Positions 15,000-45,111 of a stretch of 64,000 nt of DNA are shown piece after piece; the first letter of the stretch is position 1, and each line of letters opens with the position of its first letter. Origin of the DNA: Parcubacteria group bacterium (GTDB lineage: Bacteria > Patescibacteriota > Patescibacteriia > Buchananbacterales > UBA6539). The position numbers and the translations under genes are program-made. The DNA is taken from the NCBI GenBank assembly GCA_002687175.1, contig NYZP01000034.1, positions 27,951-91,950 of the forward strand. The letters are read 5' to 3'. The notes under the pieces are model-generated. The model made no database searches. It had not been told where the DNA came from and saw only the letters and a list, made by a program, of their open reading frames with translations.

Positions 15000-15027
15000 T
15001 TAAAGTTTAAATATAAAAGAGAAATAA

Positions 15028-15062
15028 AAACAAACCCCTACTAGGCAGGGTTTGTTTTTTAA
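15028..15062. terminator. Bidirectional hairpin terminator between nrdJ and the convergent minus-strand gene
   Basis: Stem 'aaacaaacccct' ... 'agggtttgttt' followed by a T-run on the plus strand. Confidence 0.5.
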
Positions 15063-15137
15063 TATTATATAAAAAAACGGTAGTAAGCACTTAGCTTGCT
15101 ACCGATGAAGTACAATGAACCTTTGGTTGGTTCTGGT

Positions 15138-15659
15138 TTATGTCTCCTCTTGCCTGTTCTTTGCGAGAGCTTTTTCGAACATTTTTTGCATCTCTTCTTC
15201 CAGGCTCCACCGGGGAATCGGTTCTGCGTACCAGTTAGCGTCGAATAGGAGCTTGGAAAATTCCAGTAACTCTTCCCAGCTTGCGTCGCCATGAGTAAAT
15301 TGGAGAAATCCTACCTCAACTTCAGAGCTGTCCAATTCGACTGTTATCGCACTGAGAAGCGAGCATCCGGGCGGACCCATCGCTATTTCTCCTTCGTTGG
15401 TTAGTGTGGTAGTGGCGAGGTCGAACCAGAGCCAATGAGAGTCAGAAAACTCGAACCGCGGATTACGCCAGTCATCGCTACTCATACTCCGCCTAACACC
15501 AATGACGCCTGGGGCGAATTCCTGAACCTCCGCCGGAGATCCGTAGAAGGTCGGAGGGTCTTCCTCTTTGGCTACTACCAGAAGTTGCTTTCCTGTTAGC
15601 TTTTGCCGTTCTTCGGTATCGGTCATGACCTTTTCCTCTCGAGTCATTTTCACGATCAT
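15138..15659 (-). CDS. Hypothetical protein in a GC-elevated segment with its own promoter and terminator
   Basis: The listed ORF is 15138..15701; the likely start is 'MIVKMTREEK' (15659) or the 'MTDTEE' ATG (15626, preceded by a 'gagga' SD). A minus-strand promoter TTGACA-17-GATAAT lies around 15716-15688, and a minus-strand terminator hairpin at 15066-15110. GC is visibly higher than in neighbouring genes. Confidence 0.45.
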   Translation of the reverse strand: MIVKMTREEKVMTDTEERQKLTGKQLLVVAKEEDPPTFYGSPAEVQEFAPGVIGVRRSMSSDDWRNPRFEFSDSHWLWFDLATTTLTNEGEIAMGPPGCSLLSAITVELDSSEVEVGFLQFTHGDASWEELLEFSKLLFDANWYAEPIPRWSLEEEMQKMFEKALAKNRQEET

Positions 15660-15727
15660 TTTAGTTGACCTAGAACAATATATCTTATTATTATCACGCA
15701 TTATATTTAATTGTCAAGACTATCTTA

Positions 15728-16267
15728 TTGGTTTATAATAATGTAATGAAAAGCGACCTGGGAAAAATCCATGTCTACACTGGTGACGGCAAAGGAAAAA
15801 CCACTTCGTCATTTGGTTTAACCATGCGCGCCATTGGTGCCGGCTATAAAGTTTATATTATTCAGTTTCTCAAAGGTCAGGACTATAGTGAATTAAAGAT
15901 CATAAAAAAATTGCCTAAAGTTGGTTTTAAACGTTTTGGTCTAAAAACTTTTGTTTATCAAAAAGGCACCAGAGTGGACAAGAGTTTAGCCAAGCAGGCT
16001 TTAGACTGGTCATTCAAAATTGTTAAGTCGGGAAAATATGACATGGTAATCTTAGACGAAATATTTCCCGCAGTTTTTTTTAAACTTATTAAAAACAGTG
16101 ACATCATAAAAATTATCAAAGCCAAGCCAGAAAATGTTGAGCTGGTAATGACTGGCCGTCGGGCTCCTGAGCAAGTTATTAAATTGGCTGATTACGTTAC
16201 TGATATGAAAGAAGTTAAACATCCTTACCAAAAAGGCTTGGTGGCCAGGAAGGGGATTGAGGATTAG
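15728..16267 (+). CDS. cobO: Cob(I)alamin (corrinoid) adenosyltransferase, CobA/CobO/BtuR family
   Basis: 'IHVYTGDGKGKTTSSFGLTMRAIGAGYKVYIIQFLKG' matches the P-loop and N-terminal signature of CobA-type ATP:corrinoid adenosyltransferases. The start may be the ATG at 15746. Confidence 0.7.
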   Translation: MVYNNVMKSDLGKIHVYTGDGKGKTTSSFGLTMRAIGAGYKVYIIQFLKGQDYSELKIIKKLPKVGFKRFGLKTFVYQKGTRVDKSLAKQALDWSFKIVKSGKYDMVILDEIFPAVFFKLIKNSDIIKIIKAKPENVELVMTGRRAPEQVIKLADYVTDMKEVKHPYQKGLVARKGIED

Positions 16268-16544: not shown

Positions 16545-17978
16545 ATGGAAAGAGAATTAAATTACAATCCAGAAGCTGAGGTTCGCAAGGAACGCACTTC
16601 TCTAAGGGAAATTTTTACTTTAGCAAAAGGCAAAATAGTTGAAGAGCTAATAAAATTTTTGTCGAAAAAAGATGACGAAAAAGTTGAAGCATATGTTAAA
16701 AAGGTGGGAAAAATGGCTGATCTTAATAGAGCCACTGGAGATTTTTTTCGTTCACTTATACCACAATCCTTAAATCTCCCGCAACGGGAATATGAGCATA
16801 CCGATGAAAGAAATGTATATGAGCATCTTGTTGACAATGCGCAATCTGTCCAACAACGTCGTCATCAACAACCAGAAACTATCTCTGGAGAATCTTATAA
16901 AGATTATGCAGATAATCTAGATGACCCCAGTCTTTCTGAAGCCTCGGAAAAAATCAGTGCAGTAGAGGAATCTGAAACTGGTGGGGTTAAGACTCAAAGT
17001 GCAATAGCGTCATATTCACAGGAAGGTGGAAAGAATGTAGTTAGAGAATTTGTTTATAATAATTTTCATACAATGAAAGATGGCAGAGCAGTTAGTTTAT
17101 CATATGCCGCACTCTTGATCGTAGATATTAAAAGTGGTCAAGGAATCGAATTAAAACAATTACTGCCTACTGGCTATGAATTTGTTCCTTCTCAACTTAA
17201 CGAGAGGACTCTTGAATTAGTCAAGGAGAAGGGAGAATCAAGCTCAAAGCTCATCTCACGTTTAATGCGTCATGACCTTAAGGAATACAGAGGAACGAAA
17301 GAAGCAAAGGACAATTTTGTCCTTGCAGGGAAAAAGGTGGAGTATGGCGATCTAACTGAAAAAGGAGGTATGCTATCTCTCTTACATGAGATTGCTCATA
17401 GCTGGCAAAGGGCTCATGATTTGGCAGAAGGGCGATATAACTTTGAAGATTTTTATAAAGAAGTTGGCCTGGAAGTAGCAGTGTTAAATTCTATCAGGAA
17501 AGAAGTTGAAGCAGGAGAATGGGAGCAAGAAGATTATCAAAACAGAGTTCTACCCGAGACGATAGCTGACCTAAAGAAGATTGGTGTAGAAATTGACGAA
17601 GATTATTTTTACCAGACAGACAGACCTGGTCGAAAAGGAGAAATTCGGATAAGAAGGTTGGGCGAAGAGCTACCTAGTGGTGAGTACTCATATGATCACT
17701 TTTTTATCAAAACTGATAAACTTGCCCCCTTGGTTGATGATTACGCCAGAGAAGAACGAGATGCCTGGGCTCATGCCATTCGAGTTTTGCGTTTCTTAAG
17801 AAAAAAAGGGATTGATCTTGAACCACAGCTTAAGAGCTCAAAAGATTTTAGAGAAATTATTGACCCCGCTTTAGGCTCGTATCAAAAAAGTTTAGACAAG
17901 GAAGTTGAGTTTTCCGCCGAACCTGAAAGTAGAAAATTTCTTCGAAGAAAATCAATTGACCAAGCAGATGCGGTCTGA
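16545..17978 (+). CDS. Hypothetical 477-aa protein with an HExxH motif ('LLHEIAHSW'), possibly metallopeptidase-like, encoded inside the insertion
   Basis: The ORF is intact. I recognise no family fold beyond the HEIAH motif. GC is intermediate to high. Confidence 0.4.
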   Translation: MERELNYNPEAEVRKERTSLREIFTLAKGKIVEELIKFLSKKDDEKVEAYVKKVGKMADLNRATGDFFRSLIPQSLNLPQREYEHTDERNVYEHLVDNAQSVQQRRHQQPETISGESYKDYADNLDDPSLSEASEKISAVEESETGGVKTQSAIASYSQEGGKNVVREFVYNNFHTMKDGRAVSLSYAALLIVDIKSGQGIELKQLLPTGYEFVPSQLNERTLELVKEKGESSSKLISRLMRHDLKEYRGTKEAKDNFVLAGKKVEYGDLTEKGGMLSLLHEIAHSWQRAHDLAEGRYNFEDFYKEVGLEVAVLNSIRKEVEAGEWEQEDYQNRVLPETIADLKKIGVEIDEDYFYQTDRPGRKGEIRIRRLGEELPSGEYSYDHFFIKTDKLAPLVDDYAREERDAWAHAIRVLRFLRKKGIDLEPQLKSSKDFREIIDPALGSYQKSLDKEVEFSAEPESRKFLRRKSIDQADAV

Positions 17979-17982
17979 AATG

Positions 17983-18017
17983 ACGTGGTTGCTAGAAAGG
18001 GGATTGAGGATTAGGTT
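17983..18017 (+). pseudogene. Displaced partial duplicate of the cobO 3' end (direct repeat B)
   Basis: A short frame 'NDVVARKGIED*' ends in the same 20-bp sequence as cobO. The identity is higher at the protein level than at the DNA level. Confidence 0.6.
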
Positions 18018-18212
18018 ATAGTAAAGTTAATATAGTTTGCTAAATAAAATCGCCATAGTGATAGATGACGATTTTTTTGACAGAAATCAGTTTGATTATT
18101 TTCTTATTTCGTGATAAAACAAGCTTATTATTGCACTTTGAAATTACCATAACACAAATTTGTGTTTACCAATTTAAATCCGGAAGCGGGTAGCTTACAA
18201 GGAGAAGGCACC

Positions 18213-20003
18213 ATGAAAAATGAAGGTGAAGTTGTTAAGCTCTCGCTACCACGAGGGTATACTAAACTACCAGTTGAAGAACTGGAAAGTCTGTACCGCG
18301 AGATCGAGGATCGCCGCACCGATGATGCCGAGCTGGCCGAGACACTTAAGCATCGGTTAAGAAAGGTCATCAGACGTAGGAAAGGGTCTTTAAGTATTGC
18401 TACAACAACTCCGTCAATTGAGCTTGATTCCGGTTTGCCAAGTTTTCCGGTACACAACACCGGAGGTTTGCCGGTTGGCGGGGCGAATTGTCTGCTTGAT
18501 CCGATCTCAATTGTTCATGAACAATGGTTCAGAGTTGTTAAGGAAATTGCCTGCGGCCTGATTGGCCAAACCGATGGGATAACTCCTACATTCAGTATTG
18601 AGGAAGTGCGCGACGACAGAAAGAGTGCCGTCCGCTTTGTAGTTCGTTGGAGTATTCCACGATTTTTGAGTATTGAAGATCTGTTAGGGGTCTTCAAAGT
18701 TACTCAAGAATCTTTTAGGAGCCGTCAGGTGACTGGACACAAAAGCGTTGATCGACCAAAAGCCAGTGGCTGGGAGCAAGTTATTAGCTACTATGACGTT
18801 AATGACCATATTGTTAAAGGCCGCCGAGGTGTCTATTTTGGGCCTGAAGGTGATTGGGATAATCATGCTACTGGCGTAATCGTGTCGCGACAGTTCAAAA
18901 ATACTAGCGAAGCCATGTATCTGCAGTCGGAGTATCCGGACGAATTTCTTTCACGTTGGGCTCAAACAAAACCGAAAAAGTGTGAGACATTCATCGAAGT
19001 TCGACTGCCGTCAGAAAAGGAAAAGTTTACCCAGCAGGAAGACGCCTTGTATCTGGTGGTTCAGTTGGCGTTTTTGTTCGCCAAACAAAAACGTTTAGAA
19101 AAGCGTCTTCTAATGGCCGCTATTTTCAAAGCGCTCAACCGAGTCGGCACCGCGCCGATCGCCAGAGAGAAGCTGTTTGGTATGCGTGAAATTTTAGAGG
19201 CGGTTGAGCGTACTTTGTTACTGCCACTGGAACAACCAGTGCTGGCTCAAGAGCTGGGTATTGTTCCGGAATCCATTCTGGAGGTCGGCGTTAAGGGAGT
19301 GGGCAAGACTTTTCTGGCTCATTACCTGATGGCCGGTGATTACGCGGCCATTTTTGTGGCCATTAATTGCAGTTCGTTGTTGATCGATCTTCAGCAAAGA
19401 GGTGCTTCTATCTTGGAACGGATCGATCAGATTTCCGATGAATGCCAGCTACCGGTGGTGTTGATTATCGATGACATTGATATTGTTCTGGATAAAAAGG
19501 AAAAAACAGTGGCTATGGTACTCAACTGGATGCAAAGTATCCGGCAGAAAGGTTTTTACATTCTGGCCACCACCAACTATCCGGAACGGATCGATGACCG
19601 GATGATGGAACCTGGACGGTTGTCTCGCATCTTGCACGTTGACTTGCCTAATCCACAGGATCGTTGTGGAGTGTTAGACAGCCACACCAAGGATCTACCG
19701 ATTGCCGAAAAAGAACGGCAAGCGGTCATTAAGTGGTTGGCCAAGGAAACCAAGGGCTGGACCCAGCGTTTTCTTTGGGAGTTAGTCCAAGAGGCCGCCC
19801 GTAACTGTGGTTTGGCCTTACTTGGCGGAAAAATTCAAAGTCAGGCTAATGGCACCGAAGTGATGCTCAAGCGGGAGCACTTTGAACAAGCGTTAAAGGA
19901 ATTGTCCCAGCGCATTGATAAGAAAAGTATTGGTGAGGAGAACGATAGGGTTCATAAATTTGTGAGTAAGAAGAGGCAAGAGATTGGTTTTCGGACCGAT
20001 TGA
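18213..20003 (+). CDS. Classic-clade AAA+ ATPase (CDC48/FtsH-like ATPase module) with an uncharacterised N-terminal domain of about 330 aa
   Basis: Walker A 'GVKGVGKT', Walker B 'VVLIIDDID', and second region of homology 'LATTNYPERIDDRMMEPGRLSRILHVDLPNPQDR'. SD 'aaggag' precedes the ATG at 18213 (the track ORF starts at 18162). GC is clearly elevated. A 16-bp perfect palindrome 'aacacaaatttgtgtt' lies about 50 bp upstream. Confidence 0.65.
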   Translation: MKNEGEVVKLSLPRGYTKLPVEELESLYREIEDRRTDDAELAETLKHRLRKVIRRRKGSLSIATTTPSIELDSGLPSFPVHNTGGLPVGGANCLLDPISIVHEQWFRVVKEIACGLIGQTDGITPTFSIEEVRDDRKSAVRFVVRWSIPRFLSIEDLLGVFKVTQESFRSRQVTGHKSVDRPKASGWEQVISYYDVNDHIVKGRRGVYFGPEGDWDNHATGVIVSRQFKNTSEAMYLQSEYPDEFLSRWAQTKPKKCETFIEVRLPSEKEKFTQQEDALYLVVQLAFLFAKQKRLEKRLLMAAIFKALNRVGTAPIAREKLFGMREILEAVERTLLLPLEQPVLAQELGIVPESILEVGVKGVGKTFLAHYLMAGDYAAIFVAINCSSLLIDLQQRGASILERIDQISDECQLPVVLIIDDIDIVLDKKEKTVAMVLNWMQSIRQKGFYILATTNYPERIDDRMMEPGRLSRILHVDLPNPQDRCGVLDSHTKDLPIAEKERQAVIKWLAKETKGWTQRFLWELVQEAARNCGLALLGGKIQSQANGTEVMLKREHFEQALKELSQRIDKKSIGEENDRVHKFVSKKRQEIGFRTD

Positions 20004-20020
20004 TTGTTTACGGCTCGAGT

Positions 20021-20052
20021 CAAATAAGACTTGAGCCATTTTTTTAGAAGGA
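20021..20052 (+). terminator. Terminator after the AAA+ gene
   Basis: 'ggctcgagtc aaataa gacttgagcc' followed by a T7 run. Confidence 0.6.
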
Positions 20053-20161
20053 ATTTATATTAAATATCTAAGTGTGTCTTGACAAATTCGGTAATGTTTG
20101 ATAGTGTTTTATGATGTTAAAAATAGCGGCGGCTGTTCAAAGTTAGAGGAGGAAAATAGCT

Positions 20162-20416
20162 ATGAAAGTCGTAGTAATGAGAAATGCCTTAGATGAGCTG
20201 GGGAAGAGGATGGTTATGGGAATCGTCGAAGCCATTGGTGGTGAAATCCTCAGCGCTCCAGACACCATGGTTGCCTTGGCAAATGACGACTGCAAAGATG
20301 GTCCAAGTATCATTTGCAGCATCATGAAGGATGAGAGACAGACATTTACGGCTGTCGAAGAATTGGCAGGCAAACAAGAGATTGAGGTTGTCAATCTTGA
20401 CTTCATGAAGGTATAA
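20162..20416 (+). CDS. Small (84-aa) hypothetical protein with a strong RBS and its own terminator
   Basis: SD 'agaggagg' lies 8 nt upstream of the ATG. A perfect hairpin terminator 'aggtcgtcaaaa/ttttgacgacct' plus T-run at 20451-20480. Confidence 0.5.
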   Translation: MKVVVMRNALDELGKRMVMGIVEAIGGEILSAPDTMVALANDDCKDGPSIICSIMKDERQTFTAVEELAGKQEIEVVNLDFMKV

Positions 20417-20518
20417 CATTCTTGCAAAATGACCATGCTTTTTAACACAAAAGGTCGTCAAAATTTTGACGACCTCTTTTTTTATTTATGCTATCTACTT
20501 ATCCCCATCACGGTTTAT

Positions 20519-20547
20519 TTGACAGGACATCTCCAGTATTATACAAT
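20519..20547 (+). promoter_or_regulatory. Sigma70-like promoter (TTGACA-17-TACAAT) driving the riboswitch transcript
   Basis: -35 'ttgaca' at 20519-24, a 17-nt spacer, and -10 'tacaat' at 20542-47. Confidence 0.55.
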
Positions 20548-20571
20548 CATATTACCTTAAAAAATAGTTTT

Positions 20572-20760
20572 AATTTCAGGGAAGTGAGGTGTGATTCCTC
20601 CGCTGACCCGCAACTGTGAAACCTCTATCTAAATTAGGTAAGGGGTTAAGCCAGACCACTGAAATTAGAGCTAACTATAATTCACTAAGCTCTTCGAGGT
20701 ACGAGAGTCGGTGATGTCTGATATGGACATTTTCGCTCTCCCTTGAACAGGGAGATTTTT
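20572..20760 (+). promoter_or_regulatory. Cobalamin (AdoCbl) riboswitch with an SD-sequestering terminator-like expression platform
   Basis: 'cagGGAAGtgaGGTGtgAtTCCtccGCTGaCCCGCAACTGTgAA' matches the conserved 5' core of the cobalamin riboswitch. A B12-box-like 'AAGCCAGACCACTG' lies at about 20647-20660. The 3' hairpin 'ctccc ttgaaca gggag' plus U-run (20735-20760) pairs with the 'agggag' SD 9 nt upstream of the ATG at 20766. Confidence 0.7.
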
Positions 20761-20765
20761 AATTT

Positions 20766-22643
20766 ATGAGAACAAAAAGAAATGGTATTCTACCATTCTT
20801 GACTCCTCGGCTCGGAAATAAAAAGTCTAAGACTTTTTATTTCTCTCGCTCTACGTCGTCAATCAAGAATTTTTGTTTAAGCTTAGCGGCCGTGGCAATG
20901 TTGCTGCAGCCGGTTTTAGCTGCCGCCGGAGTTTCTGAAGGCGTTAGCTATTTGGAGGCACAAACTCAAGATCCATGGATTACCATGGCTTTAGTTGCTG
21001 CCGGTGAGTCTGGTATTTCTACCAGTCACTTAACTTCAGTTTCCGGAACTACGGCGACTGACTATGCTAAAACTATTTTAGCTTTAGCCGCAGTTAACGA
21101 AAATCCCGCAACTTTTGGGGTGATTGATTTTGTGGCCGAACTAAAAAGCTATCACCAAGGCGGTCAAATGGGTGATGACAGTTTGATTAACGACGATGCT
21201 TGGTCAATTTTGGCCTTATCATCAGTCGGTGAATCTGGTACGGACGAAATGGAAGATGCCAAAGATTTTATTTTAGACAATCAAAATCCTGATGGTGGTT
21301 GGAGTTGGGGCGTTGGTGGTGCTAGTGATACCAATGACACCTCAGCCATGATCATGGCGTTAATTGAGTCTGGCGTTAGTGCAGGGGACTCAGTTATTAC
21401 TTCAGCTTTAAATTATTTAGAAGAAACCCAAAACGACGATGGTGGTTTTGGTTTTGACGGAGACTCTGATTCTGATTCTGGTTCAGACTCTTGGGTAATT
21501 GCCGCTTTAATTAAAGCCGGCATTAATCCAAACAGTTGGCAAGAGGAAGGTAACAGTCCAATTGACCATCTAGAAACTTTGCAGGATGATGATGGTGGTT
21601 TTTGGTGGGTGCCAGAAGGTGAATCAGAATTTAACAATAAAGCGATGACTGCTTTTGCGGTAGTTGCTTTAAGTGGCTCATCTTATCCGGTTGGTTACTT
21701 TGCCGGTGGTGACGCAGGTCCGCTAGCTGGAACTTTTAGCCTAAGAATTGAAGGGGCTAGTCGCACCATCTGTGACAGTTTTGTTGAAGCGGAAAACGGT
21801 TTAGATATTGTAGAAAACGGTTCAGAAATTTGTGATTACACTTATACTATTGAAGATACCGCTTTTGGTCCTTACTTGTCAGAAGTGGCTGGTGAAGCGG
21901 CTGAAGGTCTTGAAGGTTGGCTTTATCTGGTTGATTATGTTTCACCGCCAATTGGTGCCGCTGATTATGTTTTAGTAGAAGGCGAAGAAGTACTTTGGTA
22001 CTATGGTGAGTGGGGAATTAGTCCACTGCGATTAATTGTTTCCGATGATGAAGTAGATTCTGGAGACAGCACCACAATTACCGTTGAATATTATGAAGAT
22101 GGTTCTTGGCTACCGTTGGCCGGTGCTACTATTAAAGGTGCTGACCAAGACTACACTGCTAACGGTTCAGGACAATTAGCTCTAGGTTTAGATGATGGTT
22201 TTTACAACCTTTACGCCGAAGAAGATGGTTATGTCAGAAGTGCTAAAGTCGGAGTTACCTTTGGCGAGGGAGTTTCCGGAAATATTGGTTTAACCGTTGA
22301 AATTGATCAAGGCGGTGGCGGTGGTGGCGGTGATGGTATTGGTTTAGACATCGATACCAGTAGTATTGACTTTGGTATTTTAAGTCCTGGTGAAATTGCT
22401 GAAAGTATTGTTGGTATCATCGGTAATGTTGGTACTATTGATATCACAGTCAGCGCCTCGGTTTCTGGTGACACACTGTTTACTTCAAATTTAACAATTA
22501 ACGCCGTTGCTCCTAGTCAGTATTCACAAGACTTTAATGCCGGTGAAGGTGGTTCCGCTACTGTCGCCTTAAGTGTGCCAGAAAATTATCTTGGTTCAGG
22601 TGTTAAAAACGGTGAGCTGATTTTTTGGGCCACGCCTCAATAA
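20766..22643 (+). CDS. Secreted protein with prenyltransferase/terpene-cyclase-like (alpha/alpha toroid) repeats plus C-terminal beta-rich domains; first gene of the riboswitch-controlled locus
   Basis: Signal peptide 'LSLAAVAMLLQPVLAAAG'. Repeats 'NPDGGWSWGVGG..AMIMALIESG', 'NDDGGFGFDG..WVIAALIKAG', 'DDDGGFWWVPEG..AFAVVALSG' are of the QxxDGGW type. A poly-Gly tract is present. Confidence 0.55.
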   Translation: MRTKRNGILPFLTPRLGNKKSKTFYFSRSTSSIKNFCLSLAAVAMLLQPVLAAAGVSEGVSYLEAQTQDPWITMALVAAGESGISTSHLTSVSGTTATDYAKTILALAAVNENPATFGVIDFVAELKSYHQGGQMGDDSLINDDAWSILALSSVGESGTDEMEDAKDFILDNQNPDGGWSWGVGGASDTNDTSAMIMALIESGVSAGDSVITSALNYLEETQNDDGGFGFDGDSDSDSGSDSWVIAALIKAGINPNSWQEEGNSPIDHLETLQDDDGGFWWVPEGESEFNNKAMTAFAVVALSGSSYPVGYFAGGDAGPLAGTFSLRIEGASRTICDSFVEAENGLDIVENGSEICDYTYTIEDTAFGPYLSEVAGEAAEGLEGWLYLVDYVSPPIGAADYVLVEGEEVLWYYGEWGISPLRLIVSDDEVDSGDSTTITVEYYEDGSWLPLAGATIKGADQDYTANGSGQLALGLDDGFYNLYAEEDGYVRSAKVGVTFGEGVSGNIGLTVEIDQGGGGGGGDGIGLDIDTSSIDFGILSPGEIAESIVGIIGNVGTIDITVSASVSGDTLFTSNLTINAVAPSQYSQDFNAGEGGSATVALSVPENYLGSGVKNGELIFWATPQ

Positions 22644-22661
22644 AGAAATAAAGAATAAACT

Positions 22662-23177
22662 ATGTTAAAGCGAAGCTGGTTGATCCTGATAATCTTATTT
22701 TTTGGAAGTTTAGTTTTTAGTCAATCAGCTTCTGCCGTAGGTGTTGGTGTAAAACCAAAAGAAGTTCAACTGGACGTTAGAGTAGGGCAAGAAACCACGA
22801 CCGAAATTTTAGTGATTAACATTGCTAAAGAACCGGCTCTTTACCAAGTGACGGCCGATGCCTTGGAAGATGAAATCAGCATCAGCCCTCAAGATTTTAA
22901 GATGGAAGCCGACACCAATAGACTTGTAACTATTATTGTTAAGCTTAAAACGCCGGGACTGTTCAACACTAATTTGTCAGTGGTGGCGCGTCCATTAGGC
23001 GCCGGTGGCTTAACCGCCGCTTCGGGCGTAAAAGTTCCAATAACCATTACTGCTTCGGGATTTCCTTTATGGTGGTGGGGAGCAGGCCTCTTCGTTCTAG
23101 TTTGCTTAAGTTGGTTATTTAGAGTAAAATTAAAAAAGAAACTTAGAAAAGCTAAAATCAGTAACCCAGAACTATGA
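22662..23177 (+). CDS. Cell-surface protein with a signal peptide, a beta-rich domain, and a C-terminal TM anchor with a basic tail
   Basis: N-terminal 'LILIILFFGSLVFSQSASA'. C-terminal 'LWWWGAGLFVLVCLSWLFRVKLKKKLRK'. Confidence 0.45.
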   Translation: MLKRSWLILIILFFGSLVFSQSASAVGVGVKPKEVQLDVRVGQETTTEILVINIAKEPALYQVTADALEDEISISPQDFKMEADTNRLVTIIVKLKTPGLFNTNLSVVARPLGAGGLTAASGVKVPITITASGFPLWWWGAGLFVLVCLSWLFRVKLKKKLRKAKISNPEL

Positions 23178-23629
23178 AGTTAATTGCCAAAATAATTATA
23201 ATCGTTACCATATTTGCTGCTGGTTTTTATATTGGTCAACAAGCCTTGGCACCAGCAAATGGCTCTAAAGTAGTAGGTGAAGAAAATAGTGAACAAATAA
23301 CAGTCAGTTTAATGTTTGACTTTGGTGATGGTGAAGTACGAACTTTTAATGATGTGGTTTTATCAAAGAATGCGACGATGCTTGAACTTTTAGAAAAAGT
23401 AACTACTGACAATGATTTAGAATTTAGGATCACAGATTATGGTGGTGGTTTAGGAGCGTTAATTGAGTCAATTAATAATTATTCATCTGATGCTCGGAAT
23501 AATCGCTATTGGCATTTCTGGGTGAATAATGTTTACTCCGACATTGGAGCCAGTAATTACATTTTAGAAAATAGTGATGTGGTTGAATGGAAATATACTT
23601 TAAATCAATTTAATTTAATAGTTAATTAA
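23174..23629 (+). CDS. DUF4430-like protein (beta-domain of the transcobalamin/intrinsic factor family; putative cobalamin-binding)
   Basis: N-terminal TM/signal. C-terminal 'NRYWHFWVNNVYSDIGASNYILENSDVVEWKY' matches the W-x-F-x-VNG..GA..Y.L..GD.V.W.Y signature of DUF4430. The start overlaps the previous gene (ATGA). Confidence 0.55.
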   Translation: MKLIAKIIIIVTIFAAGFYIGQQALAPANGSKVVGEENSEQITVSLMFDFGDGEVRTFNDVVLSKNATMLELLEKVTTDNDLEFRITDYGGGLGALIESINNYSSDARNNRYWHFWVNNVYSDIGASNYILENSDVVEWKYTLNQFNLIVN

Positions 23630-23635
23630 AAAGTT

Positions 23636-24175
23636 ATGGATAAAAGAACAAAATTGATCATCTCTTTCATCTTAATTGTTCTAGCAGTGGCAACCAGAAC
23701 ATTGCCACATCTTTGGAACTTTGCACCAATTGCGGCCATTGCCCTTTTTGCCGGTGTCTATATGGGCCGTAGTTATGCCTTAATTTTACCACCAGTTGCT
23801 ATGCTGGCTGGTGATATGTTTATTGGTTTTTACTCTTTACCTCTAATGGCCGTAGTTTATGGCAGTTTTATGTTGATTGGCTTGATTGGTGTTTGGATTA
23901 AAAAACACAAGAGTTTAGAAACAGTTATTGCTGCCAGCATTTCCGCTTCAGTGGTATTTTTTCTGGCCACTAATTTAACCTATTGGCAGTTCTCACCTTT
24001 ATATTCTCATGACCTAGCAGGTTTATTGACTGCATTTTCTAGTGCCTTACCATTTTTCCGTAATACTTTATTAGGTGATCTATTCTATACTGGAGTATTA
24101 TTTGGTGCTTACGAAGCAGTTATAATGTGGTCAAAACAGAAGAAATTAGCATTTCAGACTGCAAAAAATATCTAA
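23636..24175 (+). CDS. Small polytopic membrane protein, ECF-transporter S-component-like (putative cobalamin substrate-capture or transport component)
   Basis: 179 aa with about 5-6 predicted TM helices. Last gene of the riboswitch-controlled operon. Terminator at 24197-24228. Confidence 0.4.
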   Translation: MDKRTKLIISFILIVLAVATRTLPHLWNFAPIAAIALFAGVYMGRSYALILPPVAMLAGDMFIGFYSLPLMAVVYGSFMLIGLIGVWIKKHKSLETVIAASISASVVFFLATNLTYWQFSPLYSHDLAGLLTAFSSALPFFRNTLLGDLFYTGVLFGAYEAVIMWSKQKKLAFQTAKNI

Positions 24176-24196
24176 AATAATCTAAAAATATTATAA

Positions 24197-24228
24197 AAAA
24201 CTGTGGATAAGTATCCACAGTTTTTTTA
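24197..24228 (+). terminator. Terminator ending the B12 locus
   Basis: 'ctgtggata agt atccacag' followed by a T7 run. Confidence 0.6.
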
Positions 24229-24395: not shown

Positions 24396-25094
24396 ATGAT
24401 TAAAATTAAAAGTCAGTTATCAAAAATGAGTCAATTTTTTCAAAGCGCGGCCGTAGTTGTAATAGCCTCGCTTTTTGTTATGTCGGTTGTTTATGCCGCT
24501 TCAACTATTGGTACAAACATAACGACCGAAGGTACGGTCGAGGTTTCCGGAGCTCATGCTTCAACCACTGGTTTCATGGTGATCGGTACTGCCTTAGACG
24601 CTACTCTGTCTCCATCAGCTGGTGATTTGTTTGTTTCAAATAACGCTACGGTGACTACATCACTACATGTGGGTAGCAACGCCACTATAACTAACACTTT
24701 AGAAATTAATGGTGCCTATGCTTCGACCACTGGTTATTTAGCAGTTGGTACAGACTTTTCGGCCCTGATGAGTGGTGGTGATATATTTAACTCAGGCAAT
24801 GCTACGTCCAGTGGGAATCTAAGTGTTGGTGGCTTTGCTTCAACAACCGGTTACTTAAAAGTTGGTGGTGGAGTTATTGATATGTCAACCGGAACCCCAA
24901 CTACTACCCCGGGAATATTTTCTCGTGATCGAACGAATTCAACATCAACTGTCAGTGTTGGTGATATTGATGATGGGAGCGCTGCAACTGTAAGCAATGG
25001 TTGTTTAGAAATGGCAGTTGAAGGAGTTTATTATAACTGTATGGTTGACGCCGGTGTTGGTGATCTAAATTGCGTCATTGGTAGATGTAATTAA
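24396..25094 (+). CDS. Secreted repeat protein of unknown function
   Basis: Signal peptide, then three repeats of 'GAxASTTGYLxVGT'. Confidence 0.4.
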   Translation: MIKIKSQLSKMSQFFQSAAVVVIASLFVMSVVYAASTIGTNITTEGTVEVSGAHASTTGFMVIGTALDATLSPSAGDLFVSNNATVTTSLHVGSNATITNTLEINGAYASTTGYLAVGTDFSALMSGGDIFNSGNATSSGNLSVGGFASTTGYLKVGGGVIDMSTGTPTTTPGIFSRDRTNSTSTVSVGDIDDGSAATVSNGCLEMAVEGVYYNCMVDAGVGDLNCVIGRCN

Positions 25095-25132
25095 AACAGA
25101 GAAAATTAATTAACCTTAAATCTTATAATATT

Positions 25133-26734
25133 ATGAGAAAGATTTTCTTGACAATATCAGGGGTTACCATATTTTCTCTGGCCTTAGGTTTGCCTTTGGC
25201 AGCCTTGGCAGCAGTTATAACTTTTGATGGTACTACAACTTTAGCTATGCCTAATGGTAGAAACGTGGATGTACTAACAGGCTCAACTGTTGAGGCCTTC
25301 ACAGTTAATGACGACTCAACTCTTTCACTTGATTTAGCTAGCGATTCCAACGTTAGTTTAGAGGCGACTGATAGCTGGATAATGTCAGTTTCTCCAGAAA
25401 TTGCCCAAAACAGTTGTTCCGGCACAACCGCTTCAATGAACATAACTTCGGCTACGACCCAAACAGTGACTGTTACAATCAGTGGTGACCTTTGTGGTGC
25501 TGCTGGTGGTGGTCCTGGAGGAGGCGGTGGCGGTGGCGGTGGCGGCGGTGTCCCAGCTGTACCACCAACTGAGACCTCGGCGGTGATTAATGGTGGTAAT
25601 GATCAAACGGACAGTGTTAATGTTACTTTAACTTTAGCGGCAACTTCGGCAACTCTTATGTTAGTTTCTAATACCTCCGATTTTTCTGATTCTGACTCCA
25701 CTTGGGAAGATTATGCTACCTCTAAATCATGGACTCTAACTTCTGATTTAGGAACCAAAACAGTCTATGTTAAATATCGCAGTTCCAGTGGCGGTGAATC
25801 AGCAGCTGTTACAGATACTATTGAATTAGTAGCTGCTACTGAACCGGAAAGTTCCGATGTCAGTGGTTCTGCTGGCGGTAGTGTGAGTTTAAGTGATGAT
25901 AGTGCAGCTGTTTCAGTACCAGCTGGCGCTATTACTGGAAGTGGTACAGTTAGTATTACCCCAACCACAAGTTATACTTCTCCTGGCGGCAGTGATAAAA
26001 TTGTTGGTGGTAAAGTTTATGATTTACTCTTAACCGTTGACGGTTCAACAGTGGCTACTTTTGATGAATTTGTTACTTTAACTTTTAGTTACAATGACGG
26101 CGATGTTAGTGGTATTGATGAGTCAACTTTATCGATTAAATATTGGAGTGAGGCAACGGCCGAGTGGCTTGATTTAGGTGGTACTGTTGACTCAGATAAT
26201 AATACAGTTACCGTTGAAACCGCTCACTTTACTCAGTTTGCTATTGTTGGACAACAGTTATCTGGTGGTGGTGAACTTGTAAAATTGGAGTGTGCCGCAG
26301 ATGCTGGTGTTAATGATCCCTGCAAAGCAGTCTATTATTTAGGTGACGATGGTAAGCGGTATGTTTTCCCTAATGAAAAAACTTACAACACCTGGTACAG
26401 TGATTTCTCGTCAGTAACAACTATCAGTGCCGACGATTTAGCTACTTATATGATTGGTGGCAATGTAACATATCGACCAGGAGTTAAATTGGTTAAGATT
26501 CAGACTAATTCAAAGGTTTACGCTATTAGCGGTGGCGGTGTCTTACGTTGGGTATCCACCGGAGAGGCTGCCGAAGGATTATACGGAAGTAGCTGGGCCA
26601 GTATGGTTGAAGATATTCCTGATGCTTTTTTCATTAATTACACTGAGGGGGCTGATATTGCGGAGACTGCTGATTATGATAAAGCGGCCATTTTGAATGT
26701 AGCTGTGGACATTAATACTGATAAAGGCTTGTAA
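25133..26734 (+). CDS. Secreted or surface protein with a poly-Gly tract
   Basis: Signal peptide. 'GGGPGGGGGGGGGGGVPAVPP' is encoded by a GGY tandem repeat at 25507-25548. Terminator at 26752-26790. Confidence 0.4.
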   Translation: MRKIFLTISGVTIFSLALGLPLAALAAVITFDGTTTLAMPNGRNVDVLTGSTVEAFTVNDDSTLSLDLASDSNVSLEATDSWIMSVSPEIAQNSCSGTTASMNITSATTQTVTVTISGDLCGAAGGGPGGGGGGGGGGGVPAVPPTETSAVINGGNDQTDSVNVTLTLAATSATLMLVSNTSDFSDSDSTWEDYATSKSWTLTSDLGTKTVYVKYRSSSGGESAAVTDTIELVAATEPESSDVSGSAGGSVSLSDDSAAVSVPAGAITGSGTVSITPTTSYTSPGGSDKIVGGKVYDLLLTVDGSTVATFDEFVTLTFSYNDGDVSGIDESTLSIKYWSEATAEWLDLGGTVDSDNNTVTVETAHFTQFAIVGQQLSGGGELVKLECAADAGVNDPCKAVYYLGDDGKRYVFPNEKTYNTWYSDFSSVTTISADDLATYMIGGNVTYRPGVKLVKIQTNSKVYAISGGGVLRWVSTGEAAEGLYGSSWASMVEDIPDAFFINYTEGADIAETADYDKAAILNVAVDINTDKGL

Positions 26735-45041: not shown

Positions 45042-45111
45042 CGGCGTGTAGCTCAGGAAGAGCGCCTTGCTTGGGGCAAGGAGGTCGTAGGTGAAAATCC
45101 TGCCACGCCAA
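45042..45111 (+). tRNA. tRNA-like element, possibly tRNA-Pro(UGG), with an atypical T-loop and a short D-loop (could be a pseudo-tRNA or att remnant)
   Basis: Acceptor 'cggcgtg'/'cacgcca' (C1-A72 mismatch), U8 A9, D-stem gctc/gagc, anticodon stem ccttg/caagg, loop 'cuUGGgg' (T33, G37), variable 'aggtc', T-stem gtagg/cctgc. The T-loop is 'tgaaaat' rather than TTCRANY. Confidence 0.3.

What the first reader, a model, noticed from the sequence alone, without database searches (positions are those of the whole stretch)
20519..20765. Cobalamin riboswitch with an SD-sequestering expression platform
The conserved core 'GGGAAG-GGTG-A-TCC...GCTGACCCGCAACTGTGAA' and a B12-box-like 'AGCCAGACCACTG' are present. 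The terminal hairpin 'ctccc...gggag' plus U-tract pairs with the 'agggag' SD of the downstream ORF. A clean TTGACA/TACAAT promoter precedes it.
Basis: partly seen in the sequence, partly recalled or inferred. Interest (0 to 1): 0.55.

Follow-up and report, generated by a model that had tools for sequence, protein, structure and literature searches.

The report
Ordinary B12 riboswitch with transcription terminator
This is a genuine but ordinary vitamin-B12-sensing RNA switch in an uncultured Patescibacteria genome; it most likely shuts off a B12-uptake operon by stopping transcription early, not by hiding a ribosome-binding site.

Summary
The leader at 20553-20717 matches the Rfam cobalamin clan above threshold. 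The matching model is RF01482 (AdoCbl; 57.6 bits, threshold 50), not RF00174.

Homologous leaders sit upstream of orthologous genes in many Patescibacteria loci. Their helices covary, including the L5-L13 kissing loop.

The "SD-sequestering" reading is not supported:
- The hairpin at 20737-20755 plus U-tract is an intrinsic terminator, found in all 22 related leaders.
- The P13/L13 region is complementary to the terminator's 5' half. That antiterminator is the predicted minimum-energy fold in the window and in 14 of 18 relatives.
- This genome shows no Shine-Dalgarno enrichment: 4 of 44 genes carry the motif, against an 8% background.

The mechanism matches the experimentally dissected P13/antiterminator/terminator platform of repressing corrinoid riboswitches.

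The regulated operon encodes a transcobalamin-like secreted protein, a small membrane-anchored protein, a DUF4430 protein and an ECF-S-component-like membrane protein. A B12-dependent ribonucleotide reductase and a corrinoid adenosyltransferase lie nearby.

Verdict: a new member of a known kind, of low-to-moderate interest.

The parts
20452..20483 (+). Intrinsic terminator of the upstream gene (20162-20416). It isolates the riboswitch unit.
   Evidence: 10-bp stem AGGTCGTCAAAATTTTGACGACCT followed by CTTTTTTT.
20519..20547 (+). Sigma-70-type promoter: TTGACA, 17-nt spacer, TACAAT. The predicted transcription start is near 20554.
   Evidence: 11 of 12 positions. The Rfam match starts at 20553. 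A TTGACA-like -35 box sits at the same relative place in related loci.
20553..20717 (+). Cobalamin-clan aptamer including the P13 hairpin (Rfam RF01482, AdoCbl).
   Evidence: 57.6 bits against a gathering score of 50, model positions 1-149 of 149; on a MAFFT alignment of 11 orthologous leaders, 77.3% of cells are paired against 62.0% in shuffles (0 of 500 reach it) and 39-51% when the partners are slid.
20566..20672 (+). Outer closing helix: 20566-20577 pairs with 20661-20672 (12 bp). It encloses the ligand-binding core, which comprises helices 20584-20589/20597-20601, 20604-20606/20610-20612, 20614-20616/20652-20654 and 20620-20624/20643-20647.
   Evidence: Compensatory changes are seen in these helices.
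20606..20608 (+). L5 nucleotides A-C-C, which form the kissing loop with L13 G-G-U (20698-20700).
   Evidence: helix 4. Pair types are GC:5 / CG:4 / UA:1 for the middle pair, CG:11 for the second pair, and UA:4 / AU:2 / UG:1 / other:4 for the third.
20649..20661 (+). B12-box-like segment AGCCAGACCACTG.
   Evidence: It aligns to the model consensus AAGUCAGGUCUUU. AAGCC is nearly invariant in relatives.
20682..20714 (+). P13 hairpin: 20682-20686/20710-20714 and 20689-20694/20703-20708. Loop L13 is CGAGGUAC (20695-20702).
   Evidence: Folded alone it gives -10.9 kcal/mol. It covaries in relatives (helix 8).
20690..20754 (+). Antiterminator, the ligand-free fold. Pairings: 20690-20699 with 20741-20746 and 20751-20754; 20703-20707 with 20736-20740; 20709-20711 with 20733-20735. 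It encloses the middle hairpin.
   Evidence: MFE -27.3 kcal/mol. It already gives -25.1 at nt 20749, against -14.4 for P13 plus the middle hairpin. Relatives.
20713..20731 (+). Middle hairpin (GAUGUCU-GAUAU-GGACAUU). It is compatible with both conformers.
   Evidence: A hairpin of different sequence is predicted between P13 and the terminator in nearly all of the 18 relatives folded (17 with a stable stem; L087 only -0.1 kcal/mol).
20737..20765 (+). Intrinsic terminator, the ligand-bound fold. Stem 20737-20743/20749-20755, loop 20744-20748, U-tract 20756-20765. AGGGAG (20749-20754) is its 3' arm.
   Evidence: -10.3 kcal/mol. A strict script finds a terminator in 18 of 22 relatives; the other 4 have one by eye.
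20766..22643 (+). Gene 1 of the regulated operon. A secreted transcobalamin-like protein: alpha/alpha toroid, DUF4430 beta domain and C-terminal beta-sandwich domains.
   Evidence: Pfam. PDB phmmer matches residues 346-409 to the transcobalamin beta domain, E 4.9e-4. The AF2 model's top Foldseek PDB hits are transcobalamin, haptocorrin and intrinsic factor, E 6e-12 to 5e-9, over about 415-430 columns.
22662..23177 (+). Gene 2: a 171-aa protein with an N-terminal signal-like segment and a C-terminal membrane anchor. Family unknown.
   Evidence: It is syntenic in 25 loci.
23174..23629 (+). Gene 3: a stand-alone DUF4430 (transcobalamin beta-domain-like) protein with an N-terminal membrane anchor.
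   Evidence: Pfam PF14478, E 5.7e-15. Synteny.
23636..24175 (+). Gene 4: a DUF6580 six-helix membrane protein with the fold of ECF-transporter S-components. It is the putative corrinoid permease.
   Evidence: Pfam PF20221, E 1.3e-46. AF2 model pLDDT 93.9. Top PDB hits are FolT, RibU, ThiT and PanT, TM 0.56-0.65.
24195..24226 (.). Palindromic, bidirectional terminator-like hairpin that ends the operon.
   Evidence: 14-bp stem AAAAAACTGTGGATA...TATCCACAGTTTTTT.

Best explanation
A sigma-70-type promoter (20519-20547) drives a leader of about 215 nt. Its aptamer (20553-20717) is a cobalamin-clan riboswitch and most likely binds adenosylcobalamin or a related corrinoid.

With ligand bound, loop L5 (ACC, 20606-20608) kisses loop L13 (GGU, 20698-20700). 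This locks the P13 hairpin (20682-20714). The downstream segment is then free to form the terminator hairpin 20737-20755, and RNA polymerase stops in the U-tract 20756-20765, just before the ATG at 20766.

Without ligand, L13 and the 3' arm of P13 (20690-20711) pair instead with the 5' arm and loop of the terminator (20733-20746). This antiterminator lets transcription continue into a four-gene operon (20766-24175). The operon encodes a secreted transcobalamin-like B12 binder, a small anchored protein, a DUF4430 protein and an S-component-like membrane protein. I read this operon as a corrinoid capture and uptake system that feeds the adenosyltransferase (15728-16267) and the AdoCbl-dependent ribonucleotide reductase (12588-14999) encoded upstream.

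Shown here: family membership by covariance-model score; conservation and covariation of the aptamer helices and the kissing loop; the presence and conservation of the terminator; and the mutually exclusive antiterminator.

Inferred, not shown: ligand identity, the OFF direction in vivo, and the transport function of the operon.
For: **Family membership**
- RF01482 scores 57.6 bits against a gathering score of 50, full length.
- Related leaders upstream of orthologous genes also reach Rfam gathering scores: RF01482 in L015, L003, L095, L083 and L081; RF00174 in L002, L004, L006 and L009.
- nhmmer finds the leader in about 65 of 160 loci.

**Structure**
- On an unbiased MAFFT alignment of 11 leaders, 77.3% of cells are paired against 62.0 +/- 1.7% in shuffles (0 of 500 reach it) and 39-51% when slid. 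28 of 40 pairs show a change on both sides.
- The middle kissing-loop pair switches between G:C (5), C:G (4) and U:A (1).

**Terminator**
- 7-bp stem followed by TTTTT.
- Kept in all 22 relatives: 18 by a strict script and 4 by eye. This includes five loci whose start codon is 50-1176 nt further on.

**Antiterminator**
- The window's platform MFE is -27.3 kcal/mol, against -24.2 for P13 + middle hairpin + terminator.
- At nt 20749, before the terminator's 3' arm exists, the antiterminator gives -25.1 against -14.4.
- In 14 of 18 relatives the platform MFE pairs at least 11 nt of the P13 region with the terminator region and has no terminator-internal pairs.
- Cognate P13-region/terminator-half duplexes average -14.1 kcal/mol, against -12.0 for non-cognate and -8.2 for shuffled. 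0 of 20000 permutations reach the observed mean.
- The in-register L13/terminator-loop helix is 70.4% paired, against 39-51% when slid.

**Published precedent**

**Regulon**
- Transcobalamin-like fold of gene 1.
- S-component-like fold of gene 4.
- The order NrdJ, CobO, riboswitch, operon is conserved in L083, L081 and L082.
- NrdJ passes NF006417 at 1157 bits against a cutoff of 961.
Against: - No experiment: ligand binding, termination and the direction of regulation are all inferred.
- The terminator stem is short (7 bp, -10.3 kcal/mol).
- The two platform conformers differ by only about 3 kcal/mol in the full-length fold.
- Formal covariation in the L13/terminator-loop helix is weak, because its UCGA core is almost invariant and self-complementary. 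Its covariation score is 0.155 against 0.126 in shuffles (12 of 500 reach it), and only one pair switches GC to CG.
- In 4 of 18 relatives the MFE is the terminator form rather than the antiterminator.
- RF00174, the classic model, did not reach its threshold here.
- The adenosyltransferase falls just under the NCBIfam cutoffs: 178.1 against 185 bits.
Confidence: 0.8

Rival explanations
1. The first reader's model, alone or in addition to termination. The hairpin 20737-20755 sequesters a functional Shine-Dalgarno sequence (AGGGAG, 20749-20754), so B12 controls translation initiation at ATG 20766. In the dual version, the same hairpin both terminates transcription and masks the SD on read-through transcripts.
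For: - The purine-rich 3' arm (GGGAG, GGGGA or AGGGA) lies a near-constant 7-12 nt before the ATG in 13 of 18 leaders.
- In the antiterminator fold, 20747-20750 and the U-rich stretch up to the ATG are unpaired.
Against: - SD-like motifs are not enriched before start codons in this window: 4 of 44 genes against 8.2% of all 15-nt windows, and 2-6 of 44 at control offsets. Leaders are 81% A+T.
- The spacing from GGAG to the ATG is 11 nt, at the long edge for an SD.
- The antiterminator MFE itself pairs GGAG (20751-20754) with 20690-20693, so the motif is not freed in the ON state.
- The hairpin carries a canonical U-tract.
- Relatives with distant start codons keep the hairpin.
Confidence: 0.12
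2. A trans-acting riboswitch-containing small RNA like EutX/Rli55 of Enterococcus and Listeria. In those, B12-dependent termination decides whether a downstream protein-sequestering module is made.
For: - It hits the Rfam model RF01482. From memory, that model was originally built around the Firmicute eut-locus AdoCbl element.
- EutX is described in PMC5821096 (listed).
Against: - The ATG of a conserved B12-related operon begins 10 nt after the terminator stem.
- No eut genes or ANTAR regulator appear among the genes annotated here.
- The same leader-gene linkage recurs in dozens of loci.
Confidence: 0.02
3. An activating (ON) corrinoid riboswitch, as reported for A. halodurans cobT. In that case P13 itself acts as the antiterminator.
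For: Such switches exist (PMC10327014).
Against: - Here P13 (20682-20714) and the terminator (20737-20755) do not overlap and can coexist: with P13 enforced the fold gives -24.2 kcal/mol.
- The structure that excludes the terminator also excludes P13.
- Uptake genes are expected to be repressed by B12.
Confidence: 0.03

Closest known systems
Rfam RF01482 (AdoCbl riboswitch aptamer), clan CL00101 (cobalamin)
   Same: - Full-length match above the gathering score.
- Same core, B12-box region and P13 hairpin. The L13 loop reads CUUCGAGG, as in the model consensus CuUCGAGGcA.
   Different: - The host is a Patescibacteria/CPR bacterium.
- An 18-nt longer hairpin occupies the variable P6 region.
- Ligand selectivity was not tested.
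Repressing corrinoid riboswitch of Priestia megaterium metE (P13 / antiterminator / terminator model; PMC10327014)
   Same: - The kissing loop L5-L13 locks P13.
- Otherwise the 3' side of P13 pairs with the 5' side of an intrinsic terminator.
- The antiterminator is more stable than P13 alone.
   Different: - Here the L13 loop bases that make the kissing loop (G20698, G20699) are themselves part of the antiterminator.
- A conserved middle hairpin sits between the two halves.
- The kissing loop is about 3 bp (ACC:GGU).
- The controlled genes are for uptake, not metE.
Translational cobalamin riboswitches (E. coli btuB; env8)
   Same: The same aptamer clan, and the same use of L5-L13 to transmit ligand binding.
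   Different: In those, the ribosome-binding site lies in or next to P13/L13 and no terminator is needed. Here there is a canonical terminator, and the genome shows no SD usage.
EutX / Rli55 riboswitch-regulated small RNAs (PMC5821096)
   Same: An AdoCbl aptamer followed by a terminator.
   Different: Those act in trans by sequestering an ANTAR regulator. This one is a cis leader of an operon.
Bacterial transcobalamin-like (alpha/alpha toroid + SLBB/DUF4430) surface proteins predicted to bind B12 (Burroughs et al. 2007, PMC1796856)
   Same: Gene 1 has a signal peptide, the toroid, the SLBB/DUF4430 domain and Ig-like domains. This is exactly the architecture that paper describes.
   Different: That paper did not use riboswitch evidence and predates CPR genomes. 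B12 binding remains untested.

Membership tests
Cobalamin riboswitch clan CL00101 / RF01482 AdoCbl | Covariance-model score at or above the curated gathering score | tested here: met
   57.6 bits against 50, E 5.8e-8, model positions 1-149 of 149. Without P13 the core alone scores 46.1 bits.
Cobalamin riboswitch clan CL00101 / RF01482 AdoCbl | Conserved core helices supported by covariation in homologous sequences | tested here: met
   77.3% paired against 62.0% in shuffles (0 of 500 reach it) and 39-51% when slid. 28 of 40 pairs have a change on both sides.
Cobalamin riboswitch clan CL00101 / RF01482 AdoCbl | L5-L13 kissing-loop tertiary contact | tested here: met
   The three proposed pairs are 84.8% paired. 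The middle pair is GC:5, CG:4, UA:1 (helix 4).
Cobalamin riboswitch clan CL00101 / RF01482 AdoCbl | Direct binding of adenosylcobalamin or another corrinoid | not testable with these tools
   Needs in-line probing, ITC or a reporter assay.
Cobalamin riboswitch clan CL00101 / RF01482 AdoCbl | Location in the 5' leader of B12-related genes | tested here: met
   The downstream operon encodes a transcobalamin-like protein, a DUF4430 protein and an S-component-like protein. The same linkage recurs in relatives.
   The whole-window gathering scan lists only RF01482 and reports no left-out clan match, whereas print such counts. In the permissive scan two weaker clan matches exist but their scores are hidden. 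The exact RF00174 score is therefore unknown.
Terminator-type repressing corrinoid expression platform (P. megaterium metE type) | Intrinsic terminator (GC-rich hairpin plus U-tract) downstream of P13 and not overlapping it | tested here: met
   Terminator at 20737-20755 plus TTTTT. It coexists with P13 in the constrained fold and is conserved in relatives.
Terminator-type repressing corrinoid expression platform (P. megaterium metE type) | [quoted passage not shown] | tested here: met
   -25.1 kcal/mol against -14.4 at nt 20749. It is the MFE in 14 of 18 relatives. Cognate duplexes beat non-cognate ones, with 0 of 20000 permutations reaching the observed mean. The caveat is weak formal covariation in the invariant UCGA core.
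Terminator-type repressing corrinoid expression platform (P. megaterium metE type) | Corrinoid-dependent premature termination | not testable with these tools
   Needs in vitro transcription or a reporter assay.
SD-sequestering (translational) riboswitch platform | A functional Shine-Dalgarno sequence that is exposed in the ON state and paired in the OFF state | tested here: not met
   There is no SD enrichment in this window: 4 of 44 genes against an 8.2% background. GGAG (20751-20754) is paired in both the terminator and the antiterminator MFE folds. The 16S anti-SD could not be checked because no rRNA lies in the window.
EutX/Rli55-type trans-acting riboswitch sRNA | No cis-regulated ORF; a downstream ANTAR-binding module | tested here: not met
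   A conserved ORF starts 10 nt after the terminator stem.
Transcobalamin / intrinsic factor / haptocorrin-like B12 binders (gene 1) | An alpha/alpha toroid domain followed by a beta (SLBB/DUF4430) domain | tested here: met
   Pfam finds PF13243, PF00432 and PF14478. Foldseek top hits are 4zrp, 2bb5, 4kki and 2pmv, E 6e-12 to 1e-9, over both domains. The rmsd is high (about 22 Angstrom), so the relative domain orientation is not modelled.
Transcobalamin / intrinsic factor / haptocorrin-like B12 binders (gene 1) | Binds cobalamin | not testable with these tools
   Inferred only from the fold and the riboswitch linkage.

The most novel reading that the evidence does not exclude
The riboswitch marks the corrinoid acquisition route of Patescibacteria, which has not been characterised experimentally. 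In this reading, a secreted transcobalamin-like binder and a membrane-anchored DUF4430 protein hand B12 to a solitary S-component-like DUF6580 permease. These genes are kept next to the adenosyltransferase and the AdoCbl-dependent ribonucleotide reductase that consume B12. A second, protein-mediated layer of control may act through the TTATCC(A/C)C sites that flank the operon.
Probability: 0.4. Interest if true: 0.5.

Novelty: new member of a known kind. Interest (0 to 1): 0.25.

Why it matters
The RNA itself adds nothing new in kind. It is a textbook corrinoid OFF switch of the terminator type.

Its value is as an annotation anchor. It ties a widespread but uncharacterised gene set to B12 in ultra-small, host-dependent Patescibacteria, which cannot make the cofactor yet depend on an AdoCbl-dependent ribonucleotide reductase. 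That gene set comprises a transcobalamin-like toroid + DUF4430 protein, a stand-alone DUF4430 protein and DUF6580.

It also illustrates a general caution. A purine-rich stretch before an ATG should not be read as a ribosome-binding site in a genome that does not use Shine-Dalgarno sequences.

Tried and rejected
- **Score for RF00174.** The tool keeps only the best clan member. I tried to unmask RF00174 by searching the core without P13. RF01484-type competition did not change: RF01482 still won at 46.1 bits and the two weaker clan matches stayed hidden. I can only say RF00174 did not reach its gathering score.
- **Formal covariation of the antiterminator, first attempt.** A MAFFT alignment of concatenated P13 and terminator halves (A4) was mis-registered by one column, so I abandoned it.
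- **Formal covariation of the antiterminator, second attempt.** A fixed-register 13+13-nt construct (A5) gave conserved complementarity but little covariation, because the UCGA core is invariant. Support for the antiterminator therefore rests mainly on per-locus folds and the cognate versus non-cognate test.
- **PDB sequence search with DUF6580** found nothing meaningful. Only the fold search was informative.
- **Literature searches.** Patescibacteria plus cobalamin riboswitch returned nothing. The single CPR, riboswitch and B12 paper was irrelevant.
- **The palindrome-bearing insertion in gene 1** was searched in the window and in all loci. It is unique, so I did not pursue a repeat-element explanation.
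- **No covariance model was built.** The MAFFT-based counts already sufficed.

Full report
**Observation**

- TTGACA at 20519-20524 and TACAAT at 20542-20547, with a 17-nt spacer. This matches 11 of 12 consensus positions.
- The conserved core strings at 20579-20598 and 20602-20620.
- AGCCAGACCACTG at 20649-20661.
- The hairpin at 20737-20755, followed by TTTTTAATTT.
- The ATG at 20766.

The unit sits in a self-contained intergenic region. It is bounded upstream by the terminator of the preceding gene (20452-20483). No ORF of 60 aa or more overlaps it on either strand.

**Family membership**

A gathering-threshold scan of the whole window against Rfam 15 gives one riboswitch hit. RF01482 (AdoCbl, clan CL00101) covers 20553-20717 at 57.6 bits against a gathering score of 50, E 5.8e-8, over the full model.

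The hit starts about 6 nt after the -10 box, which fits the predicted transcription start.

One search reports no left-out clan match, while searches do print such counts when they occur. Without the P13 hairpin the core alone scores 46.1 bits.

**Organism and relatives**

The downstream 625-aa protein is 100% identical to a Tara Oceans protein. It is 44-59% identical to hundreds of proteins from Patescibacteria such as Falkowbacteria, Buchananbacteria and Parcubacteria.

I fetched 160 loci encoding relatives.
- Rfam finds cobalamin-clan riboswitches directly upstream of the gene in L015, L003, L095, L083 and L081 (RF01482) and in L002, L004, L006 and L009 (RF00174).
- An nhmmer profile of six leaders detects the element in about 65 loci. 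These include distant relatives of the gene in Streptomyces.

On a plain MAFFT alignment of 11 leaders, I tested the structure transferred from the Rfam alignment of the window:
- 77.3% of cells are paired, against 62.0 +/- 1.7% in column shuffles (0 of 500 reach it) and 39-51% when partners are slid by 1-3 columns.
- 28 of 40 pairs show changes on both sides.

The proposed kissing loop joins L5 A20606-C20607-C20608 to L13 G20698-G20699-U20700. Its middle pair switches between G:C (5), C:G (4) and U:A (1).

**Expression platform**

Downstream of P13 (20682-20714) lie a small hairpin (20713-20731) and the hairpin 20737-20755 with a U-tract. The scan tool calls the latter a terminator.

The unconstrained MFE of 20681-20765 is a different fold at -27.3 kcal/mol. 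In it, L13 and the 3' arm of P13 pair with the 5' arm and loop of the terminator:
- 20690-20699 with 20741-20746 and 20751-20754
- 20703-20707 with 20736-20740
- 20709-20711 with 20733-20735

Forcing P13 yields P13 + middle hairpin + terminator at -24.2 kcal/mol.

When the transcript is cut at 20749, before the terminator's 3' arm exists, the antiterminator gives -25.1 against -14.4 kcal/mol.

So the two states are mutually exclusive and nearly isoenergetic. The antiterminator is the default, and G20698/G20699 are shared between the kissing loop and the antiterminator.

This is the logic demonstrated by compensatory mutagenesis for the P. megaterium metE corrinoid riboswitch (PMC10327014).

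**Comparative support for the platform**

All 22 full-length related leaders have three elements: a P13 with loop UUCGAG(G/C), a middle hairpin of unrelated sequence, and a hairpin plus U-run.
- A strict script finds the terminator in 18 of 22. The other four fail only because G-U extension eats the U-run or because the loop is long.
- In 14 of 18 loci the platform MFE pairs at least 11 nt of the P13 region with the terminator region and has no terminator-internal pairs.
- Cognate P13-region/terminator-half duplexes average -14.1 kcal/mol, against -12.0 for non-cognate and -8.2 for shuffled. 0 of 20000 permutations reach the observed mean.

A caveat applies to the L13/terminator-loop helix. 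It rests on an almost invariant, self-complementary UCGA core. Its in-register complementarity is conserved: 70.4% paired against 39-51% when slid. Formal covariation is weak, with only one pair switching GC (6) to CG (4). The variable, covarying part is the second helix, between the P13 3' arm and the terminator 5' arm.

**Why not SD sequestration**

[quoted passage not shown] The same motif set occurs in 8.2% of all 15-nt windows and in 2-6 of 44 genes at control offsets. Leaders are 81% A+T. The genome therefore shows no sign of using SD sequences.
- GGAG is 11 nt from the ATG.
- GGAG is also paired in the antiterminator MFE.
- Five relatives keep the terminator although their start codon lies 50-1176 nt downstream.
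- A constant 7-12 nt gap between stem and ATG in 13 of 18 leaders leaves a minor dual role possible. I give this 0.12.

**What is regulated**

The N-terminal alignment shows that ATG 20766 (MRTKR...) is the orthologous start (MKxKI... in relatives).

- **Gene 1** carries an alpha/alpha toroid plus DUF4430. Residues 346-409 match the transcobalamin beta domain, E 4.9e-4. Its AF2 model (pLDDT 80) has transcobalamin, haptocorrin and intrinsic factor as best PDB matches, E 6e-12 to 5e-9, over both domains. Burroughs et al. predicted this architecture to bind B12 (PMC1796856).
- **Gene 3** is a stand-alone DUF4430 protein.
- **Gene 4** (DUF6580, model pLDDT 94) has the fold of ECF S-components: FolT, RibU, ThiT and PanT, TM 0.56-0.65.
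- The operon ends at a palindromic terminator, 24195-24226.

Upstream lie an AdoCbl-dependent ribonucleotide reductase (12588-14999; NF006417 at 1157 bits against a cutoff of 961) and a corrinoid adenosyltransferase (15728-16267; Pfam 203 bits, just under the NCBIfam cutoffs).

The order NrdJ, CobO, riboswitch, four-gene operon is conserved in L083, L081 and L082.

The functional reading is feedback repression of corrinoid capture and uptake by the cofactor that the neighbouring enzymes make and use. This is inference.

**Verdict**

This is a real riboswitch, ordinary in kind: a new member of RF01482 with a terminator-type OFF platform of an already dissected design. Interest is low to moderate. 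The main use is as functional evidence for a B12 acquisition module in Patescibacteria.

Noticed in passing
window 20781-20864 (palindrome arms 20815-20828 and 20830-20843): Relative to about 25 homologues, gene 1 carries an in-frame insertion of about 84 nt (28 codons) in the signal-peptide n-region. The insertion contains a perfect 14-bp AT-rich palindrome, GAAATAAAAAGTCT-A-AGACTTTTTATTTC. It is unique in the window and absent from all 160 loci. Homologue P0039 has a different insertion at the same spot. One gene caller started the identical Tara protein (P0001) 44 codons downstream, which cuts through the signal peptide.
   Followed up: partly
window 20499-20506 and 24203-24210 (inside 24195-24226); L001, L081, L084, L099, L005, L082, L015, L087 and L002 upstream of their riboswitch promoters: The DnaA-box-like motif TTATCC(A/C)C occurs only twice in 64 kb, against 4.8 expected by chance. 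Both copies flank the riboswitch operon. One lies 12 nt upstream of the -35 box. The other lies inside the palindromic end-of-operon hairpin CTGTGGATAAGTATCCACAG. A + strand copy sits just upstream of the riboswitch promoter in 10 of 24 related loci, and a second copy lies at the operon end in four. It may be an operon-specific protein-binding site.
   Followed up: partly
whole window (44 start codons): There is no Shine-Dalgarno enrichment: 4 of 44 genes against an 8.2% background. The 18 nt before start codons are 81% A+T, typically ...AAATTT ATG. Almost all ORFs of 150 aa or more are on the + strand.
   Followed up: yes
window 12588-16267 and 16545-20416: An AdoCbl-dependent ribonucleotide reductase (NrdJ) and a CobA/CobO-type adenosyltransferase lie upstream. 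In L083, L081 and L082 they directly abut the riboswitch. In the window three extra genes are wedged in between: a 477-aa protein of unknown family, a 613-aa AAA ATPase and an 84-aa protein.
   Followed up: partly
L038-L079 (Streptomyces and other Actinobacteria), L011-L020 (Dehalococcoidia), L010/L021/L022 (Bathyarchaeia): Distant relatives of the toroid protein are also often preceded by a cobalamin-riboswitch core in nhmmer. The window protein weakly matches NCBIfam 'SCO2321 family membrane protein'. B12 linkage of this protein family therefore seems much wider than Patescibacteria.
   Followed up: no
L084 2751-2966, L099 694-879, L089 346-542, L097 2652-2850, L082 2665-2896: Some orthologous aptamers carry extra hairpins inserted in the loop after GGUG (L084, L099, L089, L097) or a much enlarged P6 region (L082). 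This probably explains why they fall below Rfam gathering scores.
   Followed up: no
window 45042-45111: This is the only other Rfam hit: a tRNA scoring 49.7 bits with a short D-loop. It was not examined further.
   Followed up: no
window 24396-26734: Two secreted low-complexity proteins (232 and 533 aa, Gly/Ser/Thr-rich) with no Pfam family follow the operon terminator.
   Followed up: no
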